From Pseudomonadota bacterium (GTDB taxonomy: Bacteria; Myxococcota_A; UBA9160; JADFDR01), in the NCBI GenBank assembly GCA_003353845.1, contig PIVT01000014.1:3538-67537 (forward strand): 64,000 nt of DNA, read 5' to 3'. Numbering within the stretch: position 1 is the first letter of the stretch; every line of letters starts with the position of its first letter. The notes under the pieces are model-generated. The model worked only from the letters and a program-made list of their open reading frames with translations, ran no database searches and was not told the DNA's origin. Shown here piece by piece: positions 26,147 to 56,241 of the stretch. The position numbers and the translations under genes were made by a program.

Positions 26147-28486
26147 CTACTGATTTTGAGGAAGCCAAGGGGCTTGAGTGGGAGCCCCACCTGCAGACTG
26201 CCCTTGTAGTTGAGCTTGAAAATCAGCCAAGCTCGTCACCGGCCGTTCACAAGTTTGGTTTTCACATACATAGGCCGTCACTTTTCCTCCCAAGGCTCGT
26301 TTTCCTTCGAGGAGTGGGATTCGCTTGGTGAGTTGTTCAGCCTCTGCCTGAGAAACAGTTAGGAGAATGCGATTCGGAAGAAAGGTTCGGTGCAATTCTT
26401 TCACAAAACCGGATGCCTGAGCACGGTTCTCCGGAGCGACGATCAAAATCTCTTTTGTCGGTTCGAAGTAGAAATCCAAAGCCAGGAGCATTTCGCTGAC
26501 TGTTGTCGGGGCTCTTGTAATCCGTGTGGAAAAAGCCTTCATCAGACTCTCCACTCTTTTGCGGTAAGCATCGTCTGTCGTCAGGGAATACAGGCGTAGC
26601 AGGTTCATGGCGGCGATGGAATTACCGCAGGGAACGGCGCCATCACTCAAGGCTTTTTCCCGCACGAGGAGATCGGTTTGGTCCGCGCGGGTAACGAAGT
26701 AGCCACCCTCCTCAGGATCCCAAAAATCGCGATCCAGGCTCACCTGCAAGGCCATGGCTGCGACCAGCCATTTTTCTCCGGAGGTCGCCTCAAACAAGTC
26801 GATCAGACCCGCTTCGAGAAAGGCGTAGTCCTCAAGCACGCCCTGCCCCTTCGGCTTTCCTTCGCGGAGATAACGAACGAGCTTGCCGTTTACCTTTCCT
26901 TTGGCCAGCAAAGTGTCAGCGGCTCGAGCACCAGCATCCACAAAGGCCTTCTCACTCAACACTTGACCCGCGCGCACAAAGGCAGAGATCATCAGCCCGT
27001 TCCAGGCCACAATTTGTTTCTCATCGCGCAAAGGAGGCGGCCGCATGGCCCGCGCAGTGGACATCTTTTTCCGCACCGAAGCAAGGTCCCGCTCTACCGC
27101 TAGCGGGGTTTGCTTCAACCTGGCGGCCAATTCAGCCACGCTGCGATCACGGCGAAGCACCGTCGCACCCTGTTCAAAGTTTCCGGCCTCGGTCACTCCA
27201 TAAGCAGACAGCGCCAGCGCTGAAAAGTCAGCTCCAACCGCTGCGCGCACCTGATCGGGGCGCCACACAAAGAAGATTCCTTCCTCTCCCTCACTGTCGG
27301 CATCTGTCGCAGAATAGAACGGACCTTCTGGGGAAGTCATCTCTCGCATCACGTAGGTCAACACATCGGCCGCGGTATCCGCATAGGCCCGATTTCCCGT
27401 CACCTGATAAGCCTCCACGTAGGCGCGCACCAAGAGCGCATTGTCGTAGAGCATCTTCTCAAAGTGGGGAACCGTCCATGTCGCGTCCGTTGTGTAGCGA
27501 TGGAACCCTCCGCCTATGTGATCATAAATTCCACCTCGCTGCATGGCGTCCAGCGTCTGGCGCACCATGTGCAGCGCCTGTTGCGACTTCACGCGACGCG
27601 CTTCTCGAAGCAAGAATCGATTGGGCAAACTCGAAGGAAACTTCCGGCCCCCCTTCATCCCTCCGTTGGCGTTGTCGTACTGACGCTGGTAAAGCAGCGT
27701 TGCTTTGTCCAAAACAGATTTCGTGGGAAGTTCACCCGCCCCTCCCATCACCAAGCTGCGCTCAAGCGATGCAACCACTTTCCTACTTGTTTCTTCCACG
27801 TCCGTCGGGTTCGAGGAGTAAAGCTCGTGCATGGATTTCAAGATCGACAAGAAGCCTGGACGGCGCCCCGAATCATAAGGCGGATAGTAGGTGCCGGCGT
27901 AAAAGGGTTTCCTGTCGGGAGTCAGCCAAACCGTCATGGGCCAGCCCCCACTTTTCTTGAAGCTATAAAGAGCCGCCATGTACAAGGCGTCAATGTCCGG
28001 ACGTTCCTCTCGGTCCACCTTGATCGCGATGTAGTGTCGGTTCAAGAACTCAGCTACCTCTTCATTCTCGAAGGACAGTTCTTCCATCACGTGGCACCAG
28101 TGACAAGTGGAGTAACCCACACTCAGCAAGACCGGTCGATTGAGCTTGCGCGCCGTTTCAAAAGCTTCATCACCCCAGGCGTACCAGTTCACGGGATTGT
28201 GGGCGTGCTGCAGAAGGTAAGGACTCGACTCCAGAATGAGACGATTGGTGTACTTGGCTGAACCATCGGTTGCCAGGTGAACGGTTCGGGGCTGATAGCC
28301 CGGTCCTTGATCTTTCACAGCCACCTTGAGTTGGTCGGCCAAGGACGGCGGCATGGCATTTGCTCCGGGCAGCGGAAAGTTCTCCGCACCCACGGCTTGG
28401 GCAATCAAGCTCAACGCCAACAGCCCTAGCCAAAAAATTTTCTCTTTCAGCCCGGCATGGCGTCGCCGCTGGACTTCATTCTCCAC
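26147..28486 (-). CDS. thioredoxin-domain protein of the YyaL/DUF255 family, with signal peptide
   Basis: 779 aa. [22 protein letters not shown]...[15 protein letters not shown] is the family hallmark. The C-terminal part is (alpha/alpha)6-like. Confidence 0.85.
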
Positions 28487-28564
28487 TAAGGCTTTCCCCT
28501 CTTAAAGAGCAAGCTTAATCGGAGCCCTTAGCTGCGCAAGGCTGTCCAGGCATAAACAACCACA

Positions 28565-28596
28565 GAGGGCGGTAACCCCGATGGGTTACCGCCCTC
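28565..28596 (-). terminator. stem-loop terminator downstream of the giant repeat-protein gene
   Basis: Perfect 14-bp stem GAGGGCGGTAACCC/GGGTTACCGCCCTC with loop CGAT. On the minus strand it is followed by TGTGGTTGTTTAT, which is only moderately T-rich. Confidence 0.55.
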
Positions 28597-28639
28597 TTCT
28601 AAATCCAAGCCTACAACTCAGGCTTCGATTTTCTTCCCG

Positions 28640-31600
28640 CTAGGGCAATCCAACCGGCGGGCTCGAATCCCCGCCACAACTCCAGCGCACCGTGGGCGAG
28701 TTATAAGCCCCGTAGCCCCAGAGCGGCAGCAGGATTTCGGTGACGTCATCGTTATTGCAATTGCCGTCGCCAGTAACGTCACAGATGGCCCAGTTGTTAC
28801 TCGGCTGGGTGTAGGCTCCGTAACCCCAGAGGGCCAGCAGAATCTCTGTTACGTCATCGTTGTTGGCAGCACCGTCACCGTTGATGTCCCCACACTGACA
28901 TTCATCACCGATGCCGTCGCCGTTGGTATCCGTATTGGTGACGTTTGCACTGTCGGGACACAGATCGGGGTCGGGCCCGGCATCGCAGAAGCCATCGGCA
29001 TCAGCATCACCACCGAAGGCCACACAGGGACCCTGTGCGCAATCGGGCGTGCCGTCGGCGGGTGCAAGGTCGATGGTATCGTCCTCACCCGGACACAGGT
29101 CAATATGGCCACAGACGGTGTCGAGATCCGCATCTCCTCCATAACTTACGCCGTCACCTGGATAGATGGATTCAAAACCAAAGTCGGCACTGCTGGTATT
29201 TGTCCCCCAGATCACTCCGCCGCCTCGAGAGTACACACTGTACCATGGCGTTGTTCCCGCACGAGTATTGGGCACGACCACCTCTAAGAGGTATGTCTGT
29301 TCAGGTACGACAGCCACCTCCGTCGGGAAGTTAAATCTCACCAGCCCCATCGTAAAGACTCCATCGAAAGGCGTCACAGGAACGCTTGTCGCGATGACCG
29401 GATCCGTAAAGAGCGAACCATCATGCAGCTTTATATAGATCGGGTCGTTTGGCTCAGTGGGTACGACATCTTGAAGCCACCAATTGATGCCGCGCAAGAT
29501 CGGTTGCGAGGGTTGAAACCGTTGTCCCAGGCTTGCCCAACCGGTTATGGAATAGTTCGCGGGAACGGTATTGTTGGCCTTCTGGTCAACGGTATCCCCT
29601 CCAGTTAGACAGTAGAGTTCCAGACAATCGGGAAGGCCATTGCCTCCATCTGCGACGTCCAGGTGGTCATCCATACCGGGACAGGCATCGACGGCGTCAC
29701 AGACGTCATCACCATCGGCATCCTCGCCCACGGCACAGAGCTGCAGACAATCGATAATACCATTGGCATCGAGATCTGGGAGATCATCTTCACCCGGACA
29801 TTGATCCAGGTCGTCGCAGATGGTGTCTTGATCGGTGTCCCCACCTCGGGTCAATCCTTCCCGTGCGGAGATGGTTTCGAAACCAAGGTCGGAGCCGTTG
29901 GCTGTTATGACCCCCCATTGGTGATAGAACCCGGTACCTGCAAGGTAGGGGTTTGTCGTATCCCAGTAGCTCGGGCTCGCACGATGGTTGGGTGCGACCA
30001 CCTCAAAGACATACATGTTTCCAATGGCAACATCGATGTCTGTCGGGAAGTCGAATCGCACCATCTTGCCGGGAGTAAAGTCACCATCGAAGGGCGTCAC
30101 GTCGACACTCGTCGCAACCACCGGACCTGCCAGGCTACCTTCATGCAAAATGATCTGCATGGGATCGTTTGGCAAAGCGGGATCGTCATCATAAAGCGAG
30201 ATTTCGATGGCCCGCAACGTCGGCTGCTGGGGTACAAATTCCTGGCCGTACGGTGCCAGGGACAACACCGTCTGGGCATAGCCCGACCAAATCCAGTTGG
30301 TTCTGGCAGCCCCCTGGTTCAGCGTCTCGTCTCCAACCAGGCAAGCCAGTTCGAGACAATCAGGCACGCCGTTGGCTTCCGTATCGATGTTGTCATCGAA
30401 CTCAGGAGCGGGAGATGCGCCCGGACAGACATCGGCCGCGCCGCAGACCTCATCGCCATCGTTGTCCTCGCCTACGGCACAGGTTTGCAGGCAATCCTGC
30501 AAGCCATTGTTGTCCGCATCGGCCAAGTCGTCGAGGCCGGGGCACTCGTCCGAGTCATCACAGATTGTATCGGCATCGGCATCACCGGATTCGTCCATGC
30601 CGGTACACACGTCGCTGTCATTGCAGTTGATGTCGCCGTCATCGTTGCCGCTGTCGTCGTCACCGTTACAGACATCGACGTCGTTGCAGTAACCGTCGGC
30701 GTCATCATTGCCGCTGTCATCATCGCCCTGACAGAGATCGACGTCGTCGCAGTAGCCGTCGCCATCGCTATTGCCCGCGGCGTCGTCACCATAACAAGCA
30801 TCGAGATCATCACAGAAGCCGTCGGCATCCGCGTCGCCTACGAGATCGTTCCCCTGGCACTGGTCGTCGGCATCACACACGCCATCACCGTCGGTGTCAT
30901 CGGGGTTATCGAGCGGACAAGGATCGATGTTGTCACACAACAGGTCTCCGTCGGTGTCGCCCGTGGCATCATCACCGTTACAGATGTCGATATCATCACA
31001 CACATCGTCAGCATCGGCGTCACCCGTAGCGTCGTCACCTAAGCAGTCATCAATGTCGTCACACACGCCGTCGCTATCCGTATCACCGGTGGCGTCGTTA
31101 CCGTCACATGCGTCGTAGCGATCGCAGACGCCATCGAGATCGATGTCTGTCCACGGCGTGGCGTTGTCGGGATCGCAAACGTCGCCAATGTCATCGCAGT
31201 CGATGTCGGCTTGATCGTTGTTGTAGTCGTAGCCACAATTGTCTTCCACATTGGGCCAACCGTCGTCATCACGATCGCGCTTTTGGCAGATATCACCTTG
31301 TCCATCGCCGTTGCTATCGAGTTGATCTGGGTTAACGATCAGATCACAGTTATCGCAAGCGTCACCGTGCGCGTCCCCATCGGAATCCAGTTGATCAGGG
31401 TTGAAGGTGAAGGGGCAGTTGTCGAGGTCGTCGCGCCAGCCATCGGTGTCGCTGTTCGGTTCCTCGCACGCATCCCCGATGCCATCGCCGCTGATGTCTT
31501 CCTGGCCCGGATTGTTGATGGCATGGCAATTATCTACTTCACATACGACCAGATCATTATCCACATCATCAAGAGCTGACGGCGGGACAAACTCACGGCT

Positions 31601-34375
31601 GATTTCAAATCCCTTCAAATACAGGTAGGAATTGGAATCGGTTCTGGGCTGTCCGAGACCGGGAGGATTGGGAACTTCTCTTTCCGCCATGGTGAAGCTG
31701 GACGGCGTCGTGCCGTGCTGCAAGTCTCCGCCAAACATGAAGGGGTTTAAACGCATCCCCATCTCACTGGTGCCGGGCCATTGAAAGAAGAAGTCCTTGT
31801 AATAGGTCCTGTCTTCGACAAACCCACCCAGGTTACAGGCGCTACCTTTACAATGAATCCAACCCCCGGTGTGATAATCAGGGAGATTGGTAGACCAGGT
31901 CGTTGTGGTTCCATTCAAGGTACCCAGCGCAGGACCCGAAGGGCCGTCTGCGCCGGTGTAGTCGAAGTGGCTGTACACATAAGCCAAACCGGGAGATCCG
32001 GCCACGAAGTACATGGATATGCGGTAGTCCGACATCACCACCGAAGTGCCATTGGTAGAGATGCCCGTGGAGGTTCCGTCATCCTGGAAGGTCAAGGTCA
32101 CCGTAGAGGGATCACCCGCCGGATCGGGAGCCCAATCCGTGCCGTTATCATTGTCCGTGTCTACAGCAGAACCACCCGTCCCGGCTCTGTAGCCCCAGGA
32201 GCCATCGGAGTCGCCACCAATGGGTCCAGGATTACGGTCGCCTGCACCGTTGGCGGGCGTGTTACGGACATTCAAGAGACTTCCCGTCAATGCACTTCCA
32301 GAAACCCCCGAATGCGTCCAAACGGGATTCAGATCGGTATTGGAGATGTCATAGGTGACCTTCCAAGTACCCACCTGGCCTTCGGGGCCGCTGCAGCGAT
32401 CACACGCGTCACCACCGGTAATCCCGTCGCCGAGTTCCATGCCATCGCCATCGCGGTCTCCCTGGTCGACATTGGGCACATCGAGACAATTGTCGCAGGC
32501 ATCGCCCACGCCATCGCCATCGGTATCTTCCTGGCCCGTATTATAGGTGTTGGGGCAATTATCAACGTTGTTGGGCAGGCCGTCGCCATCAGGATCGACG
32601 TCCAAGAGTTTGCCATTGACGAAGAGACCGTCATCAGCCGCAACTCGTGGGCCTCCAGAGGGATACCTGCCGTGACCGAGATCTTGGTAGGAGAAACCAA
32701 CAGTACGCGCCAACCCCATGCGCCAAGCCGCTTGGTTCATGACCAAAATACCGCCCTCAAGCAATCCATAGGCTCTCACGGTAATTGGCATGCTGTACTG
32801 CAAGGTGACGGACGCTGGCCCGACGCCATCCAAAATACCCGAGACCGTTTGATCCACGGGGAAGTCACCGCCGTCTTGACTGCCCAGGCTTGGGACCGTG
32901 AGGTCTCCTGTCAAGAGACTGGCTGCACCGTAGTTCACCAGCAAGGTCGGAGTCACTTCACCAACGATCACATATCCGTTGTCTTGACTTGTACCGGATG
33001 CACCCAAGCGCTGGGTCGTCAGTTCCATCTCCCAATACTCACCCTCGGCTGCATCCACCATCACATCTACTTCATAGATATAGGTGGGGTAGATTTTCCC
33101 CGTACCTGTTTTGCCAACGGATTCAGTTGCCGTCAGCGCAGTAAAGCGGGCCGAGAAATCACCCAGGGGGCCGGGTGTAAAGGCAGGCACATCGGCACCC
33201 GATCGCCACTGATTTTGCCCTGGAGGATGGAAGCTATCCTGACCGAGTAAATTGGTTTCATACCAATCCGTTCGATACCGAACAACCCCAGACCAGGCAC
33301 CCGTGGTTCGGTTGCGTGTATCCACACCAACGATTTCTGCACCACTGGAAGCGGCCGGACCAGCACAAGCATCGCCGACGAGGTCACCATCCGTATCTAA
33401 TTGATCATCGTTGTAGTCGTTAGGACAATTGTCGACATCGGCAGCAATGCCATCGGCATCCGTATCGACCAGGAATCCATTAACGAAGATGCCGTCCAAA
33501 TTGATATCGCGACTGCCCTGGGCGCCATTTTGCTTATACCAACCATTGCTCAGATACCCGGAATAGCGACCGATGTAAGTGATACTGTTGTTCATCCCCA
33601 TGCGGAAGGCAGCTTCCGAACGGTATAAGGTATTGGGAACCATTCCGTAAGCCATCACGCCAGCAAGCATGGTGTAGGAAATCGTCACCGAGGCCGGGCC
33701 CGTACCACTGAGGTAAGTCGGACCTGCACTCACATTGTTCTCAAAAAACGGAGTGTCTGCTGCGGATTGGTCTAACATCTCAACACCCAGGGTGAGATCA
33801 CCGCTGTCCAGCACCGTAGGCACATGGTTGATGGCCACCGTAGCTGTCGCGGCGCCAATATTCACGATGTGCCGGCTACTACTATTCCCGTAGGACACAC
33901 TCCCGGCACCGGCTCGATAGGCGCTCAAGTCCAGCTCCCAGTATTCGCCTTCATCGGCGCCAATGCTCACATGGATGTCGAACATGAATTTTGGATGAAG
34001 CGAGCCTTTATTATTCCAGGCAGACTTGGCGGAAGCCCTACCCGTAAATCGCGTATCGAAGTCAAGTGTAGTGTTCGATCCCGTAATGGCGGAGTCATGC
34101 TGAGACTGACCATTGGGTTGGTAGGCCGTATCTTTCACGGTATTGGTATTGCTATAGGAGGTTCCCAGAGGAAAAGAACCGGGTGCGTTACTTGAGCTAC
34201 TCCAACCCGCCTGGGTCTTGTTGATGAGCTGGATGCCCAGCACCTCGGCGGCCTGGGCCGCTGGCGCCAACCATAAACCGCAGAGCAAGATTGCAATGGA
34301 GCTCGAAATCTTGCTTTTTTGACTCTTCAGGAAAGTATTCTCTCTACGCAGCTGCTTAACACCCATTTCATCCAT
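28640..34375 (-). CDS. 1911-aa secreted hyper-acidic Ca-binding repeat protein (thrombospondin type 3 repeats, paralogous beta-rich modules, C-terminal double dockerin-like repeat)
   Basis: Signal peptide ...ILLCGLWLAPAAQA. Multiple DxDxDGxxDxxDNCPxxxNxxQxD units. The C-terminus GDINGDGAANNDDVTEILLALWGYG / DVTGDGNCNNDDVTEILLPLWGYG forms a dockerin type I-like pair. Confidence 0.85.
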   Translation of the reverse strand: MDEMGVKQLRRENTFLKSQKSKISSSIAILLCGLWLAPAAQAAEVLGIQLINKTQAGWSSSSNAPGSFPLGTSYSNTNTVKDTAYQPNGQSQHDSAITGSNTTLDFDTRFTGRASAKSAWNNKGSLHPKFMFDIHVSIGADEGEYWELDLSAYRAGAGSVSYGNSSSRHIVNIGAATATVAINHVPTVLDSGDLTLGVEMLDQSAADTPFFENNVSAGPTYLSGTGPASVTISYTMLAGVMAYGMVPNTLYRSEAAFRMGMNNSITYIGRYSGYLSNGWYKQNGAQGSRDINLDGIFVNGFLVDTDADGIAADVDNCPNDYNDDQLDTDGDLVGDACAGPAASSGAEIVGVDTRNRTTGAWSGVVRYRTDWYETNLLGQDSFHPPGQNQWRSGADVPAFTPGPLGDFSARFTALTATESVGKTGTGKIYPTYIYEVDVMVDAAEGEYWEMELTTQRLGASGTSQDNGYVIVGEVTPTLLVNYGAASLLTGDLTVPSLGSQDGGDFPVDQTVSGILDGVGPASVTLQYSMPITVRAYGLLEGGILVMNQAAWRMGLARTVGFSYQDLGHGRYPSGGPRVAADDGLFVNGKLLDVDPDGDGLPNNVDNCPNTYNTGQEDTDGDGVGDACDNCLDVPNVDQGDRDGDGMELGDGITGGDACDRCSGPEGQVGTWKVTYDISNTDLNPVWTHSGVSGSALTGSLLNVRNTPANGAGDRNPGPIGGDSDGSWGYRAGTGGSAVDTDNDNGTDWAPDPAGDPSTVTLTFQDDGTSTGISTNGTSVVMSDYRISMYFVAGSPGLAYVYSHFDYTGADGPSGPALGTLNGTTTTWSTNLPDYHTGGWIHCKGSACNLGGFVEDRTYYKDFFFQWPGTSEMGMRLNPFMFGGDLQHGTTPSSFTMAEREVPNPPGLGQPRTDSNSYLYLKGFEISREFVPPSALDDVDNDLVVCEVDNCHAINNPGQEDISGDGIGDACEEPNSDTDGWRDDLDNCPFTFNPDQLDSDGDAHGDACDNCDLIVNPDQLDSNGDGQGDICQKRDRDDDGWPNVEDNCGYDYNNDQADIDCDDIGDVCDPDNATPWTDIDLDGVCDRYDACDGNDATGDTDSDGVCDDIDDCLGDDATGDADADDVCDDIDICNGDDATGDTDGDLLCDNIDPCPLDNPDDTDGDGVCDADDQCQGNDLVGDADADGFCDDLDACYGDDAAGNSDGDGYCDDVDLCQGDDDSGNDDADGYCNDVDVCNGDDDSGNDDGDINCNDSDVCTGMDESGDADADTICDDSDECPGLDDLADADNNGLQDCLQTCAVGEDNDGDEVCGAADVCPGASPAPEFDDNIDTEANGVPDCLELACLVGDETLNQGAARTNWIWSGYAQTVLSLAPYGQEFVPQQPTLRAIEISLYDDDPALPNDPMQIILHEGSLAGPVVATSVDVTPFDGDFTPGKMVRFDFPTDIDVAIGNMYVFEVVAPNHRASPSYWDTTNPYLAGTGFYHQWGVITANGSDLGFETISAREGLTRGGDTDQDTICDDLDQCPGEDDLPDLDANGIIDCLQLCAVGEDADGDDVCDAVDACPGMDDHLDVADGGNGLPDCLELYCLTGGDTVDQKANNTVPANYSITGWASLGQRFQPSQPILRGINWWLQDVVPTEPNDPIYIKLHDGSLFTDPVIATSVPVTPFDGVFTMGLVRFNFPTEVAVVPEQTYLLEVVVPNTRAGTTPWYSVYSRGGGVIWGTNTSSADFGFESIYPGDGVSYGGDADLDTVCGHIDLCPGEDDTIDLAPADGTPDCAQGPCVAFGGDADADGFCDAGPDPDLCPDSANVTNTDTNGDGIGDECQCGDINGDGAANNDDVTEILLALWGYGAYTQPSNNWAICDVTGDGNCNNDDVTEILLPLWGYGAYNSPTVRWSCGGDSSPPVGLP
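29160..30360 (-). repeat. two ~243-aa paralogous coding modules inside the giant gene
   Basis: LELACLVGDETLNQ...LGFETI and LELYCLTGGDTVDQ...FGFESI align along their length. Examples are IILHEGSLAGPVVATSVDVTPFDG versus IKLHDGSLFTDPVIATSVPVTPFDG. Confidence 0.8.
30540..31150 (-). repeat. about 9-10 tandem 21-aa (63-nt) acidic di-cysteine coding repeats
   Basis: The unit is C-x-G-D/N-D-x-x-G-D-x-D-x-D-G-x-C-D-D-x-D-x. Examples are CLGDDATGDADADDVCDDIDI, CNGDDATGDTDGDLLCDNIDP, CYGDDAAGNSDGDGYCDDVDL and CQGDDDSGNDDADGYCNDVDV. Confidence 0.85.
32425..34240 (-). repeat. two ~300-aa paralogous N-terminal modules inside the giant gene
   Basis: EGEYWELDLSAYRAGA...GPASVTISYTM...FRMGMN...DGIFVNGFLVD aligns with EGEYWEMELTTQRLGA...GPASVTLQYSM...WRMGLA...DGLFVNGKLLD. 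Each module ends in TSP3 repeats, and the spacing is 900 nt. Confidence 0.8.
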
Positions 34376-34497: not shown

Positions 34498-34520
34498 ATT
34501 GCATACCTTGGGTATGCAAT
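34498..34520. promoter_or_regulatory. perfect 10-bp inverted repeat overlapping the -12 element and predicted start site
   Basis: ATTGCATACC-TTG-GGTATGCAAT read directly. The right arm contains the TTGCA of the sigma-54 -12 box. Confidence 0.4.
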
Positions 34521-34530
34521 TGACATGCCA
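34515..34530 (-). promoter_or_regulatory. sigma-54 (-24/-12) promoter for the giant repeat-protein gene
   Basis: The minus strand reads TGGCATGTCAATTGCA, against consensus TGGCACG-N4-TTGCA. The GG and GC dinucleotides are at the exact spacing with one mismatch. It lies about 140 nt upstream of ATG 34375. Confidence 0.65.
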
Positions 34531-34640
34531 GGTAAATCAAGATTATTAGTGCCACAATTCAGGTGCTTACAAGGCTTTAGGGATTTCTATAGTTAACTAT
34601 GTGAACATTATTTACAGCTATTGAGCAAATGAATCGCGGC

Positions 34641-34660
34641 CCGTAGCCGATACATTCAAA
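34641..34660. repeat. direct repeat copy 1 (CCGTAGCCGATACATTCAAA)
   Basis: Perfect 20-mer also found at 34855..34874. Similarity extends about 10 nt further (GAATCGCGGC versus GAATTGCAAT). It lies about 115-145 nt upstream of the sigma-54 promoter. Confidence 0.9.
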
Positions 34661-34854
34661 ATATTATTCAAGTTGCACACTTGTTATATGTCTCGATAAA
34701 AACAGAGCTATACACGACCGCGGTTCACCTTATTGCAAGTATACTTTTTTTCAAACACGAGTACACTGTACGCACTGAAAAGCTCCAACAAAACTGATGT
34801 GCTAGTAAATTATGAATATGGAATTAAACACAGCGTGAATGCAAGAATTGCAAT

Positions 34855-34874
34855 CCGTAGCCGATACATTCAAA
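34855..34874. repeat. direct repeat copy 2 (CCGTAGCCGATACATTCAAA)
   Basis: Identical 20-mer 214 nt from copy 1. It is embedded in a CCGATAC...GTATCGG inverted repeat just downstream of the glnK stop. Confidence 0.9.
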
Positions 34875-36938: not shown

Positions 36939-38720
36939 TTATGCAATTCCCTCCTTCGCGTCAGCTGCGGAGTTCTTTTCGTGTTCGGCTACGAGCTTGT
37001 CGTATTCCAACCCGTGTTCCTCACGCAGGCGCTCGGTGCTTATCATTCCGGTCAGCATGCTCTTATCAAAAGGAAAGACTTCTGGACGGAACGTGACGCC
37101 CCAGAGGTGCCAGATCAGCACGACGAGCACGGCCAAGGTCGCTTCATAACCATGGGCCACTCGTGCTGCAACGAGAACAACACCGGGGAGGTAGGTGGTT
37201 GTGAACTCTGGGAAGACCAAGATAATCCCTGTCCCACCGATCAACACACCACCGAGGAAGAGTCCCCAGTACTCGAACTTCTCACCGTAATCGAACTTTC
37301 CGAAACGGGGGGCCGGGCCCAAACCCATCTGATGTCGCAGGCTCTCAAAGATATCCTTGAAATCCTTTACAGTGGGCAAGATATCCGGTCGATGATGCGA
37401 GCGCAGCGTTACAAAGACGCCGTGCACCACATGCGCCACCATGATCGCGACGAATGCAAAACCACACACGCGATGGATGAAACGTGCCGAGAAAATGCCA
37501 CCCCAGAAGTCGATCACGGCTCCGGCCACACCAGAACTCGGATAGCCTTGGGGGATCCCGGTGAGCACCAACAGAATGAACAAGAACGCCACTGCCGAGT
37601 GCTCCGCACGCTCCAGTTTCGTAAACCGCATCACGCTGGCAGGTAGCCCTTCAAAGATGGCCTCCTCGTCCGGCGCTTCGGCTCTGCGTGTTCGGTAATG
37701 ATGGGTGAGCTGGATGATGATGTGCACAAGCAAACCAACCAGCATCATGGGAATCAAGAACTGATAGGCCATGCGAACGATCCACACGAGGACCCCACGC
37801 TCCGGTCCGAGCTCACCATGCCCCAACCAGGCACCGGCGAATTGTGTTGATGCGCCATCGTGGCACTCAGCACAAACCGCGACTACCTCTTCTTCTGTCA
37901 GAGGCCCCACATTGTGCGGGCCATGACAGGTGGCACAGGTCATGATCTCCGAGGGGTCGGTGCCTTCCAAACCTGACAATAAGTGCTGAAAAGTAAGCCC
38001 GTGAAAATCATCCATATAGGAGGTGACCACAGCGCCTTCTCGCTCATACTTGAGAACGAGCAGGCTATCATCCGAATGGCAATCGATGCACAGGGTCGTC
38101 ACACGGGCGATCATGGGCAAGTCAGCCCCCTCGCCCCCGCCATGCGCCGGGTGACAGGTATTGCACTCTGGCAAGTCAGCGTTGGGGTCTGATTCCAAAG
38201 TAGCTTCCGAGTGACCACCGGCCTCGAAGTCCTCAAACTCCTCCTCGTGGCAGCTATCACAGCGGTTGAGAATGGTCAGAGGGGCTGTTTCAAAGCTGCT
38301 ATCAGCGTGCGCGGAGTGACAATCCACACACATTGGAGCATCGTCGCCCTCGGAACTATGTTCTTGCAGGGTCTCTTCATGACAGGACTGGCAGAGTTCG
38401 GATCGCATCTGCGCATACTCACGTGCGCTCATGTCGTAATCGAAATCTGGATGGTCATCCACGTACTCTTCACCATGGCACGACTCACAAGCCAGGATCT
38501 CTCCGTGCGCCGACTTACGAACCGCAGCGCCATCAAACTCAAAGTAAATAACCTTGCCACTATCGAAAACGAACTCCACCTCGTCCGGATCCATATCTTC
38601 GTGACAATCCAAGCACTCCGCGTTCAGTTCATCAATTTCTTCGGGGAGCAAGTCCTGCCCCCACGCAGGAACTGCGAGGGGCAGGAACAACAGTACAAGG
38701 GCAACAACCGAGATACGCAT
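36939..38720 (-). CDS. nine-haem c-type cytochrome fused to a membrane cytochrome b (HydC/FdnI-like) domain; CbcL-like quinol oxidoreductase
   Basis: Signal peptide followed by nine CxxCH motifs (CLDCH, CESCH, CQSCH, CVDCH, CDSCH, CNTCH, CIDCH, CATCH, CAECH). The C-terminal ~290 aa has about 5 TM helices with conserved His. Start set at ATG 38720, preceded by AAGGAG. Confidence 0.8.
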   Translation of the reverse strand: MRISVVALVLLFLPLAVPAWGQDLLPEEIDELNAECLDCHEDMDPDEVEFVFDSGKVIYFEFDGAAVRKSAHGEILACESCHGEEYVDDHPDFDYDMSAREYAQMRSELCQSCHEETLQEHSSEGDDAPMCVDCHSAHADSSFETAPLTILNRCDSCHEEEFEDFEAGGHSEATLESDPNADLPECNTCHPAHGGGEGADLPMIARVTTLCIDCHSDDSLLVLKYEREGAVVTSYMDDFHGLTFQHLLSGLEGTDPSEIMTCATCHGPHNVGPLTEEEVVAVCAECHDGASTQFAGAWLGHGELGPERGVLVWIVRMAYQFLIPMMLVGLLVHIIIQLTHHYRTRRAEAPDEEAIFEGLPASVMRFTKLERAEHSAVAFLFILLVLTGIPQGYPSSGVAGAVIDFWGGIFSARFIHRVCGFAFVAIMVAHVVHGVFVTLRSHHRPDILPTVKDFKDIFESLRHQMGLGPAPRFGKFDYGEKFEYWGLFLGGVLIGGTGIILVFPEFTTTYLPGVVLVAARVAHGYEATLAVLVVLIWHLWGVTFRPEVFPFDKSMLTGMISTERLREEHGLEYDKLVAEHEKNSAADAKEGIA

Positions 38721-38730
38721 GACGATCTCC

Positions 38731-39834
38731 TTAGCGAACATTGGCCAGACGGAAGACTCTTATGATCTTCTCGCTGACTCCATAAGCAACAGCCGAAAAT
38801 ATGATCAAGGGCAGACAAACGATGTAGGCCAATCCCTTGAACGGTGCGGCAACCAACCTTCCGAAGTCACGCAATGAACCTGGATCAAAGGTCATCGAGT
38901 CAACGACTGGCGCCATGCGCTCTTCTTCGGCCACGACAGCAGGGGTCTCGATTCCAGTCACCACTGCGGGACGAAGTGCCTTCGCAAACAGCATCCCGGT
39001 TCCGTAGATGGCGGCCGCAATACCGATTACCGGCAAGAACATGATGAACGCCAAACCGATGAACGGAGAAACCGCCAATCTGCCGAGTTCGCGAAGTGAA
39101 CCTGGATCAAAGGTCGTCGCTTTAACCGCTGGCTCCGCTTTTTTCTCTTCGCATACAACAGCGGGGGGCTCGATTCCGGTTACCACGGCAGGTCGGAAAG
39201 GCTTCGCAACCAACATTCCGATTCCGTAGATCGCTGCCGCAATACCAATCACCGGCAGGAACATGATGTAAGCCAAGCCCATGAAGGGAGAGACCATCAA
39301 TCTCACGAGTTGGCGAAACGAGCCTGGTTTTGCTTCGGCCGTCTCTACAACCTGCGCAGTCTCTTCCGTTTTTCTTACCAATTGATGGATCGTCGCAGTG
39401 CCTTCGGCAGTTTCGGACACCTCAGCGGGATCGTCGGCAACCACTGCGTGAGCCCAGGATGATTGATCACCGCGCAACGCAGCCAATGCCATTTCTTCCA
39501 GATCGTCCGGGGATACCGGCTTCTCCAGATATCCGTAAGCACCCAGCTTGCGCGCCTTCGCTTCAACCTCAGGGCTACCATAACCAGTAATGAGTACGAA
39601 GGGGGTATCGGGCTCGTTATCGTGCAACCACTCCAGCAATTCCAAGCCATCCGCCCCAGGCATCCGGAGATCGGAAATGACCAGGTCAACGGGGTGAGAC
39701 TGCAATCCGCAAATCGCGCTATCTCCGTCCGCTGCGGTCGTTACCATTCGCTCATCCGTCGATAAGAGGCGCCTCCATCCTTCTCGGACGCCCTTTACGT
39801 CGTCCACGAACAAGATTTCTTGTCTATGTGCCAT
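38731..39834 (-). CDS. response-regulator receiver fused to three tandem hydrophobic repeats (unknown output domain)
   Basis: The REC domain has FVDD, VISDLRMPG, LITGYG and LEKP. It is followed by 3 copies of a ~74-aa unit with core SPFxGLAxIxFLPVIGIAAAIYG. An upstream start at ATG 39861 is possible. Confidence 0.8.
   Translation of the reverse strand: MAHRQEILFVDDVKGVREGWRRLLSTDERMVTTAADGDSAICGLQSHPVDLVISDLRMPGADGLELLEWLHDNEPDTPFVLITGYGSPEVEAKARKLGAYGYLEKPVSPDDLEEMALAALRGDQSSWAHAVVADDPAEVSETAEGTATIHQLVRKTEETAQVVETAEAKPGSFRQLVRLMVSPFMGLAYIMFLPVIGIAAAIYGIGMLVAKPFRPAVVTGIEPPAVVCEEKKAEPAVKATTFDPGSLRELGRLAVSPFIGLAFIMFLPVIGIAAAIYGTGMLFAKALRPAVVTGIETPAVVAEEERMAPVVDSMTFDPGSLRDFGRLVAAPFKGLAYIVCLPLIIFSAVAYGVSEKIIRVFRLANVR
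38734..39330 (-). repeat. 3 x 222-nt tandem coding repeat (last copy shortened)
   Basis: GAACCTGGATCAAAGGTC occurs at 38876 and 39098, exactly 222 nt apart. A diverged third copy sits near 39320. The protein-level repeats are DPGSLRELGRL..., PGSFRQLVRL... and DPGSLRDFGRL... Confidence 0.85.
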
Positions 39835-39838
39835 CGTG

Positions 39839-40303
39839 TTAGTTTCTCGTAGCGCTAGCATGTTGCACCTCCCGGGACCGCAGTCCCCACGTCAGCTCTT
39901 GACCTGGCGCAAAACACCAAGTCCGCTGTTCCAAAATCCGACGGACAGAGCGCACGACACGCTCCACGCCCGATGTGTCTAAATAGGTCTCTAAAAATTC
40001 CACGGAGCATGCGCTCAGATAGGCGGCCAAAATCACGGAAATGCCTTCTTCCACGATTGCCACCTTTCGCAAGCCGGGATACTCAAGGCTCAACCGGCTC
40101 AACACGATCAACAGTGATCCAAGTCGAAGCTCACTCACTCGGAAGATGAGTACGGCAATGGATGACAGGCGGTCGCTGTGGATCAACGCTTCCAAGTCGT
40201 GAAAGCACACGATGGGAAGTCCATCTCTGATCAAGGACTCCGCCAGTGCATCGTCTGCGGGGCCGCTTTCCAGAATGGCTATGAGGTTGGGTTGGTCATT
40301 CAT
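39839..40303 (-). CDS. pseudo-receiver-like protein (REC fold lacking the acidic pocket)
   Basis: 154 aa with a beta-alpha pattern like CheY. It reads LIAILESG where DD is expected and IAVLIFRV where the phospho-Asp strand is expected. First gene after the sigma-54 promoter. Confidence 0.45.
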   Translation of the reverse strand: MNDQPNLIAILESGPADDALAESLIRDGLPIVCFHDLEALIHSDRLSSIAVLIFRVSELRLGSLLIVLSRLSLEYPGLRKVAIVEEGISVILAAYLSACSVEFLETYLDTSGVERVVRSVRRILEQRTWCFAPGQELTWGLRSREVQHASATRN

Positions 40304-40681: not shown

Positions 40682-42151
40682 TCAGGTGTCGGTGGAAGAA
40701 GTGTCTTCAGCGCCGTCTTCACCATTGTCAGAAATTTTTGGCACGCTCACTCCGTGCTTGCGCATGAGGGCGTGAAAATTCGTGCGCTGCATGTCGACCA
40801 CGCGCGCCGCTTCAGTGACATTCCAGCGCGCTTGCTGAAGCGACTTGATAACGAAGAGCTTCTCGAGCCGTTCCACCGCCTCCGCGCGCAACTCCTTCTT
40901 CCGAGCCGCCAGGGCGCGGGCATCCTCGGGAATGTCTTCATTCTCAATGGCGGAGTGCTCACCTAAAATCGTGGGCAAGGAATCGATATCGATGAACTCC
41001 GTGTCGGTGAGAAGTACCGCACGCTCGATCACGTTCTCAAGTTCGCGCACGTTTCCAGGCCACTCGTGCACCTCAAGAGCAGAGAGCGCCCGCGGTCGAA
41101 TACCTCCAATGGGTTTATCGAATTCTTTTGAGCATTTCTCGATGAAGTGGTGCGCAAGCAAGGGGAGTTCCTCGATCCGCTCGCGCAGCGGCGGCAAGGC
41201 GACAGTGAAGACAGCCAGGCGATAGTAGAGATCCTCACGAAAGGTACCGTTCTCCACCAATTCCTTGAGGTCCTTATTGGTCGCAACGACCAAGCGCACA
41301 TCTACACTGACATATTTGTCAGCACCCACGGGTCGGATTTCACGCTCTTGAAGAAGCCTCAGCAGGCTGCTCTGAATTTGCGGTGAAATCGTAGCGATCT
41401 CGTCCAGGAACAGTGTGCCTCCGCGTGCGGACTCGACCAGGCCTTTGCGATCGCGCACGGCTCCCGTGAAGGCTCCACGCACATGTCCAAAAAGTTCAGA
41501 CTCCAAAAGTGATTCGTTCAGGGCAGAGCAATCGGCCACAACATAGGGATTGTCTTTCCTGGGGCTGTTGTAGTGAACCGACTTGGCGATGCAGTCCTTA
41601 CCCGTCCCTGTTTCACCAGAAATAAGAATCGTACTATTGGTAGGAGCCGCCTTGGCCACCAGCTGCATGACGACTTGCATCTTCGGTGACGAGCAAACCA
41701 ATCCACCAATGCGATGCCGAGTCTCCAATTCCGAACGCAGTCGCTCGGTTAGGTTGAGGAGGTGTCTGCGCTCGAGAGCGCGGGCCACGGTGATCAGGAG
41801 TTGATCCGGTGCCACAGGTTTCTGCAGGTAATCAAATGCACCTTGCCGAATAGCATCGATGGCTGTCTCGATGGTCGCATATCCCGTTACGATCACAACC
41901 TCGGTTTCAGATGCGGTCGCACGCGCCTCGCGCAATACCTCCATGCCGTTAAGCCCGGGCATTTTTATATCGAGCAAGAGAAGATCAAAGTTTCCATTTC
42001 GTAAGAGTTCAATCCCCTCCTTCGGGTCACAAGTCGTCGTGACGTCGTAGCCTTCATCGCTGAGCACCCGTCGAATGCTCTCGCAAACCACGGCCTCATC
42101 GTCGATGGATAGGACCTTTGGGGAAAGGTCCCACTCTTCATTTACTGGCAT
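40682..42151 (-). CDS. sigma-54-dependent response regulator (NtrC family bEBP)
   Basis: REC ([11 protein letters not shown]), AAA+ Walker A GETGTGKD, the GAFTGA loop (RGAFTGAV), and a C-terminal Fis-type HTH ([25 protein letters not shown]). Confidence 0.9.
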
Positions 42152-55668: not shown

Positions 55669-56241
55669 ATGATGGGGTTCAAAAACAAGATCATAAGAGT
55701 TCTCTTCCTGACAGTGCTTGGCGGCATCTTTGCGACGTCGGCTCAGGCGGCGTCTTTTTATATTTCCCTGGCAGACGGGTCAAACCCCAACTCGACGGGC
55801 GTTGCCATCGATTTGTACCTGAAGAACAGCGAGCCCTTCTATGCTTTTACTACTTATGCATGGGAAGTCACTGCCGTGGGTGACATTGCGCTCACCGGTT
55901 GGACCCCCAACGAGGGATCACCAGCCTGGAAGCAGTTTCCTGAAAAAATCTCCGGCACCCAGGGCGAGTTCGCGATCACACCAGGACCGATACACATCGG
56001 AACCTTCACGGTGGATGTAGGTACGGAACCCCATGAACTCTGGGCAAGTTCCAATCTCCAGGACGTGGTGGAATATAAAGGCTTCATCACTTCCCGGATT
56101 GAACCCATGCTGCTTTACAGCAGTTCCCAACCGGGTGTGCTCAATCCCATTCCCGAACCCGGCTCAGCTCTCCTCTTCCTCTTGGGCCTCGGACTCGTGA
56201 ACCTGGCCGACCGTCGAAAACGAACGCAAAATCGAGAGTAA
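55669..56241 (+). CDS. PEP-CTERM sorting-domain secreted protein
   Basis: Signal peptide. The C-terminus PIPEPGSALLFLLGLGLVNLADRRKR has the PEP motif, a TM and a basic tail. Confidence 0.8.
   Translation: MMGFKNKIIRVLFLTVLGGIFATSAQAASFYISLADGSNPNSTGVAIDLYLKNSEPFYAFTTYAWEVTAVGDIALTGWTPNEGSPAWKQFPEKISGTQGEFAITPGPIHIGTFTVDVGTEPHELWASSNLQDVVEYKGFITSRIEPMLLYSSSQPGVLNPIPEPGSALLFLLGLGLVNLADRRKRTQNRE

What the first reader, a model, noticed from the sequence alone, without database searches (positions are those of the whole stretch)
28640..34375. 1911-aa modular, hyper-acidic TSP3/dockerin surface protein built from nested duplications
The protein starts with a signal peptide followed by two ~300-aa paralogous modules, each capped by TSP3 Ca-binding repeats. 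A third beta-rich region with further TSP3 repeats comes next. It is followed by a 21-aa di-Cys acidic array and then two ~243-aa paralogous modules, each preceded by a DCLQxCAVGEDxDGD linker. The protein ends in a double dockerin-like EF-hand pair. Dockerins imply a cohesin-type partner, but none is in the window. The gene has its own near-consensus sigma-54 promoter, so it is regulated rather than constitutive. It could be an inducible Ca-dependent adhesin or matrix scaffold, possibly tied to the neighbouring extracellular electron-transfer genes.
Basis: partly seen in the sequence, partly recalled or inferred. Interest (0 to 1): 0.6.

Follow-up and report, generated by a model that had tools for sequence, protein, structure and literature searches.

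The report
Giant calcium-binding secreted matrix protein
This is a real 1,911-residue, very acidic secreted protein that strings calcium-binding repeats between domains otherwise found in small bacterial "floc-forming" surface proteins and ends in a dockerin-type docking module, so it most likely glues cells to their extracellular matrix; it is unusual in its make-up but is of a known general kind.

Summary
ORF 28640..34375(-) encodes 1,911 aa (14.6% Asp, 65 Cys). It has a conserved signal peptide, paralogous A/B modules (E 6e-49) and D1/D2 modules (E 1e-59), canonical TSP3 repeats (thrombospondin-2/COMP, E 1e-35) and ten 21-aa di-Cys acidic units. The only sigma-54 -24/-12 match in the 64 kb lies upstream, and a strong terminator lies downstream.

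New findings:
- A/B are homologous (hhalign 99.7%) to ~290-aa PEP-CTERM proteins distantly related to PepA, the RpoN-dependent floc-formation protein.
- D1/D2 are related to ~200-aa PEP-CTERM proteins with weak DUF4082/choice-of-anchor-R similarity.
- Both model as beta-sandwiches.
- The C-terminus belongs to a widespread "CQCGD" Cys-containing subfamily of type I dockerins. Of 37 members, 35 hit Pfam Dockerin_1. The window's own copy scores 22.7 bits against a cutoff of 22.9.
- Module C has no relatives outside seven orthologues.

Best reading: a sigma-54-controlled, Ca2+-rigidified extracellular matrix or aggregation protein that carries PEP-CTERM-type cargo domains on a dockerin anchor.

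The proposed tie to the electron-transfer genes is not supported: a close relative loses synteny exactly at the gene's upstream boundary. No cohesin was found. Expression, secretion and Ca binding are untested. This is a new variant of a known kind, of moderate interest.

The parts
34845..34874 (-). Distal copy of a 30-nt direct repeat (core TTTGAATGTATCGGCTACGG). Candidate enhancer/UAS.
   Evidence: There are only two copies in 64 kb, against 0 expected. Function is untested.
34631..34660 (-). Proximal copy of the 30-nt direct repeat, about 100 nt upstream of the -24 element.
34515..34530 (-). Sigma-54-type -24/-12 promoter motif TGGCATGTCAATTGCA.
   Evidence: the only match to TGGCAY-N5-TTGCW in the window, against 0.10 expected. 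It lies about 140 nt upstream of the start codon, inside a 39.6% GC intergenic region.
28640..34375 (-). Whole coding sequence (1911 aa from the first ATG). The likely true start is the ATG at 34366.
34250..34375 (-). Sec-type signal peptide, residues 1-42, cleaved AQA|AE.
   Evidence: Read from the sequence. A43 and E44 are invariant in 7 orthologues.
33470..34249 (-). Module A (residues 43-302): PepA-like beta-sandwich domain.
   Evidence: AF2 model pLDDT 80, pTM 0.83, all-beta.
33341..33469 (-). TSP3 cap of module A (residues 303-345).
   Evidence: 51% identical to the central TSP3 block.
32600..33340 (-). Module B (residues 346-592), a paralogue of A.
   Evidence: (E 6e-49).
32396..32599 (-). 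TSP3 cap of module B (residues 593-660).
   Evidence: (55% identical to the central TSP3 block).
31571..32395 (-). Module C (residues 661-935): family-specific domain of unknown fold.
   Evidence: Conserved in 7 orthologues and duplicated in P0006. No relatives elsewhere. Unrelated to A/B and D.
31127..31570 (-). Canonical TSP3 Ca-binding 'wire' (residues 936-1083).
   Evidence: Pfam TSP_3; thrombospondin-2/COMP, E about 1e-35.
30497..31126 (-). Ten 21-aa di-Cys acidic units (residues 1084-1293). Each is a minimal DxDxDGxCDxxDxC loop.
   Evidence: periods 21, 21, 21, 20, 21...; 63-nt tandem repeats. There was no PDB hit, so the TSP3 affinity rests on the motif only.
30371..30496 (-). Cys-rich acidic linker 1 (DCLQTCAVGEDNDGDEVCG..., residues 1294-1335).
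29840..30370 (-). Module D1 (residues 1336-1512): jelly-roll domain related to small PEP-CTERM proteins.
29639..29839 (-). Cys-rich acidic linker 2 (residues 1513-1579, containing DCLQLCAVGEDADGDDVCD).
29096..29638 (-). Module D2 (residues 1580-1760), a paralogue of D1.
   Evidence: E 1e-59. AF2 core pLDDT 77-94, beta-sandwich. Foldseek hits are PHR domains, viral jelly-rolls and CBMs.
28979..29095 (-). Acidic Cys-rich linker 3 (residues 1761-1799).
28643..28978 (-). C-terminal TSP3 repeat plus Cys-containing type I dockerin-like module (residues 1800-1911). EF-hand loops are DINGDGAANNDD and DVTGDGNCNNDD; the tail is RWSCGGDSSPPVGLP.
28564..28597 (-). Intrinsic terminator: 15-bp stem with 10 GC pairs, followed by a T-rich tail.

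Best explanation
The gene encodes a secreted, calcium-loaded extracellular matrix or cell-aggregation protein.

Proposed mechanism:
1. Shown by sequence: a Sec signal peptide is cleaved at AQA|AE.
2. Inferred: the 65 cysteines form disulfides in the periplasm, and the protein then crosses the outer membrane by an unidentified route.
3. The TSP3 repeats are shown by homology to thrombospondin and COMP. The ten 21-aa mini-repeats are assigned by motif only. By inference, both bind tens of Ca2+ ions and turn the acidic linkers into stiff, extended spacers.
4. Five beta-sandwich modules sit along this rod: two PepA-like (A, B), one family-specific (C) and two DUF4082/choice-of-anchor-R-like (D1, D2). 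A/B and D occur elsewhere as the sole cargo of small PEP-CTERM (exosortase-sorted) surface proteins. One such protein, PepA, retains exopolysaccharide on cells and drives flocculation. By inference, the modules here bind matrix polysaccharide or neighbouring cell surfaces multivalently.
5. In place of a PEP-CTERM anchor, the protein ends in a Cys-stabilised type I dockerin. By inference, this docks it to a cohesin-like or other receptor, or to itself.
6. By inference from the motif alone, transcription is from a sigma-54 promoter and so needs an enhancer-binding activator. This parallels RpoN-dependent pepA.
For: - The ORF, composition and internal paralogy are confirmed.
- There are seven orthologues at 42-63% identity with the same module order and an invariant signal-peptide cleavage site.
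- TSP_3 is above Pfam's cutoff, and residues 940-1037 match thrombospondin-2/COMP at E about 1e-35.
- The A/B profile finds 78 cluster representatives. Most are ~290-aa proteins made of a signal peptide, this domain and a PEP-CTERM tail. hhalign gives probability 99.7%, E 5e-26.
- Two of these proteins match NCBIfam floc_PepA over its full length, at E 1.5e-12 and 6e-8.
- PepA is RpoN-dependent, carries a mapped -24/-12 promoter, and increases bound exopolysaccharide (PMC9850573).
- The D profile finds ~200-aa PEP-CTERM proteins at E 5e-7 to 2e-6 against 5.8 billion sequences.
- The A and D2 models are confident beta-sandwiches. Their nearest folds are lectins/CBMs, adhesive fibre tips and PHR/jelly-rolls.
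- The C-terminal module belongs to a family in which 35 of 37 members hit Dockerin_1. The family profile matches solved type I dockerins at E 1e-9 to 1e-8.
- The sigma-54 motif is unique in 64 kb, and a terminator sits immediately downstream.
- The same organism encodes a genuine PEP-CTERM protein.
Against: - There are no expression, secretion, Ca-binding or ligand data.
- Module A itself gives no hit to floc_PepA, and module D gives no hit to DUF4082. Both links are transitive, through sub-threshold matches.
- Structural matches are weak (TM 0.25-0.52), so a glycan-binding role is only a fold-class analogy.
- The window's dockerin scores just below Pfam's cutoff, and its model is low-confidence.
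- No cohesin was found.
- Conservation of the sigma-54 motif could not be tested, because no upstream DNA of orthologues was obtainable.
- Sigma-54 motifs are not enriched upstream of other Cys-dockerin genes: 4 found against 1.9 expected.
Confidence: 0.55

Rival explanations
1. It is a cell-surface adhesin for a specific external target, such as a mineral surface, another species or a host, rather than a self-matrix scaffold. The beta-sandwich modules would act as receptor-binding domains, and the dockerin would hold the protein on the producer's surface.
For: The best structural neighbours include Bdellovibrio adhesive-fibre tip domains and phage receptor-binding or baseplate proteins. Relatives of module A are fused to VWA, cadherin-like and LamG adhesion domains. 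The locus varies between close relatives, as is typical for surface-recognition genes.
Against: The structural matches are weak (TM no higher than 0.52). The closest sequence relatives with any experimental link are floc or matrix proteins (PMC9850573). No target can be inferred.
Confidence: 0.25
2. It is mainly a calcium (or other divalent metal) sink, or a mineral-nucleating protein. The hyper-acidic Asp-rich arrays would buffer or template cations at the cell surface, possibly in connection with the neighbouring metal-respiration genes.
For: Asp is 14.6% of residues and the net charge is about -268. There are at least 16 loops of the form [DN]x[DN]x[DN]Gxx[DN]. Multihaem cytochromes lie nearby.
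Against: Five conserved globular modules and a docking domain would not be needed for a cation sink. Synteny with the cytochrome block ends exactly at the gene's boundary in a close relative. TSP3 repeats in characterised proteins are structural Ca sites.
Confidence: 0.1
3. It is a component of a cellulosome-like enzyme complex, in which a dockerin-bearing subunit is recruited to a cohesin scaffold for polymer degradation.
For: It has a type I dockerin homologue at the C-terminus. TSP3 repeats occur in secreted glycanases of Saccharophagus (PMC2386152).
Against: No catalytic or CBM family was detected in any module at Pfam, NCBIfam or PDB sequence level. No cohesin was found in the protein or in the ORFs scanned.
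Confidence: 0.05

Closest known systems
PepA-type PEP-CTERM flocculation proteins (NCBIfam NF033554; Aquincola/Zoogloea PepA)
   Same: Modules A and B are homologous to the single globular domain of a family of ~290-aa PEP-CTERM proteins, some of which match floc_PepA over its full length. Like pepA, the gene has a -24/-12 sigma-54 motif, a long leader and its own terminator (PMC9850573).
   Different: The domain is duplicated and embedded in a 1,911-aa protein. There is no PEP-CTERM tail. The module gives no direct hit to the PepA model. The anchor is a dockerin.
Thrombospondin/COMP type 3 repeat 'wire' and bacterial TSP3 repeats (e.g. OmpA-family 5wtl)
   Same: It has DxDxDGxxDxxDNCPxxxNxxQxDxDxDGxGDxC repeats with paired Cys. 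Pfam TSP_3 is above cutoff, with E about 1e-35 to TSP-2 and COMP.
   Different: It additionally carries ten shortened 21-aa units with one loop and two Cys each, which no model or PDB sequence recognises. There is no TSP C-terminal lectin-like domain.
Type I dockerins of cellulosomal enzymes (Pfam PF00404; e.g. CelS 1daq/2mte, Xyn10B 1ohz)
   Same: It has two tandem segments of a 12-residue EF-hand loop (D1, N/T3, D5, N9, D12) plus a helix. Family members match solved dockerins over both repeats.
   Different: It belongs to a subfamily with invariant extra cysteines (DGIGDxCQCGD ... CDVxGDGxC ... C). The module is always fused behind a TSP3 repeat at the extreme C-terminus of non-cellulolytic environmental proteins. 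No cohesin partner is known. This copy scores 22.7 bits against a cutoff of 22.9.
'Dockerin-type giant proteins' of Omnitrophota and other TSP3+dockerin extracellular giants
   Same: They also combine many TSP3 repeats and dockerin/EF-hand repeats in very large predicted extracellular proteins (bioRxiv 10.1101/2023.11.21.568195).
   Different: This protein is much smaller, has a single terminal dockerin, and has a different set of globular modules (PepA-like, C, D).
DUF4082 (PF13313) / choice-of-anchor R (NF041539) domains
   Same: The D modules' nearest relatives are small secreted proteins with sub-threshold hits to both models. They share the GQxF...hydrophobic-strand pattern and a jelly-roll model.
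   Different: D itself hits neither model at E up to 10. It carries a disulfide-type N-terminal DCLELxCL motif.

Membership tests
Thrombospondin type 3 repeat (Pfam PF02412) | HMM score at or above the gathering threshold | tested here: met
   42.1 bits against a cutoff of 25, in 4 stretches. E about 1e-35 to TSP-2/COMP chains.
Thrombospondin type 3 repeat (Pfam PF02412) | Ca2+ coordination by the Asp-rich loops, with disulfide-paired Cys | not testable with these tools
   Motifs and Cys spacing are present. Binding itself needs biochemistry.
Dockerin type I (Pfam PF00404) | HMM score at or above the gathering threshold | tested here: inconclusive
   The window copy scores 22.7 bits against 22.9. 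35 of 37 members of its C-terminal family hit the model, best E 1.2e-15.
Dockerin type I (Pfam PF00404) | Duplicated segment with a 12-residue EF-hand loop (D1, N3, D5, N/D9, D12) followed by a helix | tested here: met
   DINGDGAANNDD (1830-1841) and DVTGDGNCNNDD (1866-1877), each followed by VTEILL. The model places helices after both loops.
Dockerin type I (Pfam PF00404) | Sequence homology to solved dockerins | tested here: met
   The orthologue profile A5 gives E 0.014. The wider family profile A9 gives E 1e-9 to 1e-8. Member L095 matches CelS dockerin at E 2e-9. The window copy aligns to L095 at E 2e-18.
Dockerin type I (Pfam PF00404) | Confident dockerin fold with Ca geometry in a model | tested here: inconclusive
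   pLDDT is 40-50 for this part, and there are no dockerin hits in Foldseek.
Dockerin type I (Pfam PF00404) | A cognate cohesin partner | not testable with these tools
   No cohesin was found in the protein or among about 20 window ORFs scanned. The rest of the genome was not available.
PEP-CTERM / exosortase substrates (TIGR02595, PF07589) | C-terminal PEP motif, then a transmembrane helix, then a basic cluster | tested here: not met
   The C-terminus is ...RWSCGGDSSPPVGLP with no hydrophobic helix. There is no PEP-CTERM hit.
PEP-CTERM / exosortase substrates (TIGR02595, PF07589) | Globular domain shared with PEP-CTERM proteins | tested here: met
   A/B against the PEP-CTERM family A6: hhalign probability 99.7%, E 5e-26. 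D against P0078-P0080: E 5e-7 to 2e-6.
Flocculation protein PepA (NCBIfam NF033554) | HMM score of 80 bits or more | tested here: not met
   Module A has no hit at E up to 10. The intermediate P0104 scores 47.9 bits over the full length.
Flocculation protein PepA (NCBIfam NF033554) | RpoN-dependent transcription | not testable with these tools
   Only the motif is shown. The PepA precedent is in PMC9850573.
DUF4082 (PF13313) / choice-of-anchor R (NF041539) | HMM score at or above the cutoff | tested here: not met
   D1 and D2 have no hit at E up to 10. Relatives score 18.8 bits against 28.4, and 15.7 against 30.
Cellulosomal scaffoldin / enzyme | Cohesin modules or a catalytic/CBM module | tested here: not met
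   No such family was found at Pfam, NCBIfam or PDB sequence level.
RTX / T1SS giant adhesins | GGxGxD nonapeptide repeats, a C-terminal T1SS signal and no N-terminal signal peptide | tested here: not met
   Pfam finds only TSP_3 at E up to 1. A conserved N-terminal Sec signal peptide is present.

The most novel reading that the evidence does not exclude
The 'CQCGD' Cys-dockerin may be a general C-terminal anchoring module of Gram-negative environmental bacteria. On this reading it is interchangeable with PEP-CTERM in a choice-of-anchor fashion. It would dock PepA-like and other matrix-binding cargo domains to an as yet unknown cohesin-like or outer-membrane receptor. That would amount to a non-cellulosomal dockerin-based system for assembling the extracellular matrix, here under sigma-54 control.
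Probability: 0.25. Interest if true: 0.65.

Novelty: new variant of a known kind. Interest (0 to 1): 0.4.

Why it matters
PEP-CTERM proteins are widespread and are needed for floc and granule formation, yet almost nothing is known about what their globular domains do.

This protein shows two such domain families fused to a Ca-binding rod and to a different anchor, a dockerin. That offers three things:
- Natural evidence that these domains function outside the exosortase pathway.
- A multivalent construct for testing what they bind.
- A concrete bait (the Cys-dockerin) for finding the missing partner of the many non-cellulosomal dockerins in environmental bacteria.

If it is wrong, this is simply one more large acidic TSP3-repeat surface protein from an uncultured bacterium.

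Tried and rejected
- **Exact look-ups.** Searches for the protein, its 1908-aa database copy, two orthologues and the neighbouring Amt found no contigs. Cluster look-ups gave no names either.
- **Genome scan.** The genome-contig scan with the full-length alignment was swamped by unrelated TSP3 proteins and returned no family member.
- **Metagenome scan.** The scan with module C found nothing.
- **Module C.** It has no PDB sequence match, no relatives outside the family, and no relation to A/B or D. Its fold remains unknown because both prediction jobs went to A and to D2+dockerin.
- **21-aa array.** A search against PDB gave no hit.
- **RNA elements.** Rfam found none in the window.
- **IHF site.** No convincing IHF site lies between the repeat and the promoter: there is one 1-mismatch hit, in line with genome-wide chance.
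- **Nearby regulator.** The NtrC-type regulator at 40682-42151 is not specifically PrsR; it is below all equivalog cutoffs.
- **Sigma-54 as a general feature.** It is not general to Cys-dockerin genes: 4 motifs against 1.9 expected.
- **Link to electron-transfer genes.** Rejected on the synteny break.
- **The window's own PEP-CTERM protein.** It is unrelated to A and D.
Full report

Yes. The longest ORF in the region is 28640..34375 on the minus strand and encodes 1911 aa.
- It is 14.6% Asp and 12.4% Gly, with D+E = 338 against K+R = 70, and 65 Cys. The Asp and Cys are concentrated between residues 900-1300 and in the linkers.
- Segment-against-segment BLASTP confirms the nested duplications. 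A (43-337) against B (346-627) gives 36.6% identity, E 6e-49. D1 (1313-1560) against D2 (1561-1798) gives 47% identity, E 1e-59.
- The acidic caps of A and B align to the central repeat block at 51-55% identity.
- The 21-aa di-Cys array has ten units, with periods of 21 and one of 20, at residues 1084-1293. It is visible at DNA level as 63-nt tandem repeats with 74-80% matches.
- Both DCLQxCAVGEDxDGD linkers are present.
- The N-terminus has a basic n-region, a hydrophobic core and AQA|AE. A43 and E44 are invariant in all orthologues.
- A Shine-Dalgarno-like AAGGA sits 8 nt before the second ATG at 34366. The database copy of this protein, P0001, is 1908 aa.

**2. Transcription unit**

- TGGCATGTCAATTGCA at 34515-34530(-) is the only match to TGGCAY-N5-TTGCW in 64 kb, against 0.10 expected. 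A looser pattern gives three matches against 1.4 expected.
- The motif lies about 140 nt upstream of the start, in a 546-nt intergenic region of 39.6% GC. The gene is 56% GC.
- This region also holds two copies of a 30-nt direct repeat found nowhere else in the window.
- No sigma-70-like site lies on the coding strand. A 15-bp-stem terminator follows the stop codon.
- The gene therefore looks monocistronic with a sigma-54-type promoter. That the promoter functions is inference.
- An NtrC-family enhancer-binding response regulator and a kinase lie 6-9 kb upstream, but they are generic and fall below every equivalog cutoff, PrsR included.

**3. What the modules are**

*Whole protein.* Pfam finds only TSP_3 (42.1 bits, cutoff 25). 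NCBIfam gives sub-threshold TSP3-driven hits to MtsC and Omp28. PDB sequences give thrombospondin-2 and COMP at E about 1e-35 over residues 940-1037.

*Family.* Seven proteins share the whole architecture at 42-63% identity, all from unnamed NCBI assemblies.
- Most have one D module. The window protein and P0002 have two.
- P0006 has a second C module.
- The family therefore evolves by module duplication.

*A/B modules.*
- There is no Pfam, NCBIfam or PDB sequence hit.
- An exhaustive HMM search of 1.84 billion cluster representatives with the A/B alignment found 78 proteins at E no greater than 1e-3, 25 of them at E no greater than 1e-10.
- Most are 280-300 aa: a signal peptide, this domain, and a classical PEP-CTERM tail (VPEPxT...GLxGLA...RRR).
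- hhalign of A/B against these gives probability 99.7%, E 5e-26 over 178 columns.
- Eleven of 21 members hit NCBIfam floc_PepA. P0104 and P0107 do so over the full model length, at E 1.5e-12 and 6e-8, but below the 80-bit equivalog cutoff.
- Other relatives fuse the domain to TSP3+dockerin, VWA, LamG or cadherin-like domains.
- PepA is a PEP-CTERM protein of Aquincola. Its transcription depends on RpoN from a mapped -24/-12 promoter. Its over-expression restores flocculation while shifting exopolysaccharide from soluble to bound (PMC9850573).
- The AF2 model of module A is a confident all-beta sandwich (pLDDT 80, pTM 0.83).
- Foldseek against PDB gives only weak neighbours: a Bdellovibrio adhesive-fibre tip domain (E 5.8e-4, TM 0.25/0.35), CBM61/CBM6/CBM35 and concanavalin A. 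This indicates a lectin-like fold class, not membership.

*D1/D2 modules.*
- There is no direct family hit.
- The D profile finds three ~200-236-aa proteins at E 5e-7 to 2e-6, plus one close family fragment.
- Two of the three carry PEP-CTERM tails. All three share the GQSFxP...IDAIEF...V.ATS...HFDFP..V.L.PGQTY pattern.
- All three have sub-threshold DUF4082 hits (best E 0.0017). Two of them also have sub-threshold choice-of-anchor R hits (E 0.011 and 0.031).
- The D2 core models as a beta-sandwich with pLDDT 77-94.
- Its nearest folds are PHR domains (TM up to 0.52), viral capsid jelly-rolls, phage baseplate proteins and CBMs.

*Module C (661-935).*
- It is conserved in all orthologues.
- It has no PDB match and no relatives beyond a fragment of the same family.
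- The metagenome scan found nothing.
- It is unrelated to A/B and D.
- It remains a family-specific domain of unknown fold.

*C-terminus (1800-1911).*
- On its own it scores 22.7 bits to Dockerin_1, against a cutoff of 22.9. The orthologue profile reaches solved dockerins only at E 0.014.
- A metagenome scan found 235 relatives.
- In 37 aligned examples the module is always at the extreme C-terminus and always preceded by a TSP3 repeat. All share an invariant DGIGDxCQCGD, then CDVxGDGxC, then a final Cys.
- Thirty-five of the 37 hit Dockerin_1, best E 1.2e-15.
- The family profile hits solved type I dockerins at E 1e-9 to 1e-8, and a tandem-dockerin 'serine protease' fragment (8x3a) at E 2.4e-14.
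- A single member matches the CelS dockerin across both repeats at E 2e-9.
- The window copy aligns to that member at 42% identity, E 2e-18, with all Cys and both EF-hand loops in register.
- Its loops, DINGDGAANNDD and DVTGDGNCNNDD, fit the D1/N3/D5/N9/D12 dockerin pattern.
- I therefore accept it as a divergent member of a Cys-containing type I dockerin subfamily.
That part of the model has pLDDT 40-50, although two long helices follow the loops.
- Other proteins with this tail have entirely different heads, for example the 826-aa protein in L081 next to nucleotide-sugar genes. Another is a 521-aa protein in L095 beside a small protein with a VPxxA-type sorting tail and an NtrC-type regulator plus a polytopic kinase.

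**4. Context**

- Neighbours on the upstream side are glnB, amt, a multihaem-cytochrome/cytochrome b fusion, response regulators, a kinase, an MCP, and an NrfD/4Fe-4S/cytochrome c set.
- Further away are more multihaem cytochromes and a genuine 190-aa PEP-CTERM protein. The organism therefore very likely has an exosortase system.
- Downstream, beyond the terminator, is a secreted DUF255 thioredoxin-like protein.
- A JGI contig (L161) is 87% identical in DNA from the regulator through glnB. It loses all similarity exactly after the glnB stop codon. There it carries a convergent gene whose product ends in a PEP-CTERM-like tail.
- The giant gene and its AT-rich leader are therefore a variable insertion point, not a conserved part of the cytochrome cluster.
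- This argues against the proposed functional tie to extracellular electron transfer.

**5. Mechanism**

Best explanation (confidence 0.55): a Sec-exported, disulfide-rich, Ca2+-rigidified rod carrying five beta-sandwich modules.
- Four of the modules (A, B, D1, D2) are homologues of the cargo domains of exosortase-sorted matrix proteins.
- The rod is anchored or cross-linked through a dockerin.
- Expression comes from a sigma-54 promoter.

What is shown:
- the anatomy;
- the homologies;
- the promoter motif;
- the terminator.

What is inferred:
- export across the outer membrane;
- Ca loading;
- the ligand, most likely exopolysaccharide or cell surfaces by analogy with PepA and the lectin-like folds;
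- a docking partner;
- sigma-54 dependence.

Rivals:
- a target-specific adhesin (0.25);
- a cation sink or mineral-nucleating protein (0.10);
- a cellulosome-like enzyme subunit (0.05).

**6. Novelty and score**

Large TSP3 plus dockerin extracellular proteins are already described in environmental bacteria. Dockerin-like modules without cellulosomes have long been noted.

What is new here:
- The particular architecture.
- The recognition that A/B and D are PEP-CTERM cargo domains. A/B is distantly related to PepA, the RpoN-dependent floc protein; D resembles small PEP-CTERM proteins of unknown function.
- An orphan domain, module C.
- The definition of a widespread Cys-containing dockerin subfamily that always follows a TSP3 repeat.

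This is a new variant of a known kind. Interest is about 0.4.

Noticed in passing
window 34631-34660 and 34845-34874 (- strand): A 30-nt direct repeat (core TTTGAATGTATCGGCTACGG) occurs twice, 214 nt apart, upstream of the sigma-54 motif and nowhere else in the window. It could be an enhancer-binding-protein site. The proximal copy also contains a small hairpin plus T-run.
   Followed up: partly
window 55669-56241 (+): A 190-aa protein with a signal peptide and a genuine PEP-CTERM tail (IPEPGSALLFLLGLGLVNLADRRKR; Pfam 23.4 bits against a cutoff of 20.7). It is unrelated to modules A and D. It implies an exosortase system in this organism.
   Followed up: yes
L161 7139-7367 vs window 34921 downwards: A metagenome contig 87% identical from the NtrC-type regulator to glnB diverges completely right after the glnB stop. 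There it encodes a convergent gene whose product ends in a PEP-CTERM-like tail (APEPAAELLTLIAAICLGSLHALRRRERRK). This position appears to be a hot spot for swapping surface-protein genes.
   Followed up: partly
window 38731-39861 (-): A response-regulator receiver domain is followed by three tandem ~65-aa repeats, each with a hydrophobic hairpin (…SPFMGLAYIMFLPVIGIAAAIYG…). This is an unusual membrane-embedded output. The repeat number seems to differ in L161.
   Followed up: no
window 36939-38741 (-) and 61117-63909 (-): The first is a 600-aa fusion of a multihaem cytochrome c (DmsE-like) to a formate-dehydrogenase-gamma-type cytochrome b. The second is a 930-aa multihaem protein carrying a LamG/concanavalin-like domain.
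   Followed up: no
window 26147-28486 (-): A secreted 779-aa DUF255 thioredoxin-like / GlcNAc-2-epimerase-like protein lies directly downstream of the 65-Cys giant gene, separated from it by a strong terminator. A role in its oxidative folding is conceivable but unsupported.
   Followed up: no
L095 8738-15511: A 521-aa TSP3 plus Cys-dockerin protein sits next to a 177-aa protein with a VPVPAAVWLF…RRKSS sorting-type tail, and next to an NtrC-type regulator plus a 711-aa polytopic histidine kinase (PrsK/PrsR-like by architecture).
   Followed up: no
L081-L160 (metagenome loci): The C-terminal unit of a TSP3 repeat plus a CQCGD dockerin is attached to many unrelated N-terminal regions, with 235 relatives found. 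The tail RWxCGxDSxPPxG is specific to the closest subgroup (L081-L083 and the window family).
   Followed up: partly
window 30617-30829: The 63-nt DNA tandem repeats inside the acidic array are still 74-80% identical. This points to recent expansion and likely copy-number variation (and assembly risk) in this part of the gene.
   Followed up: no
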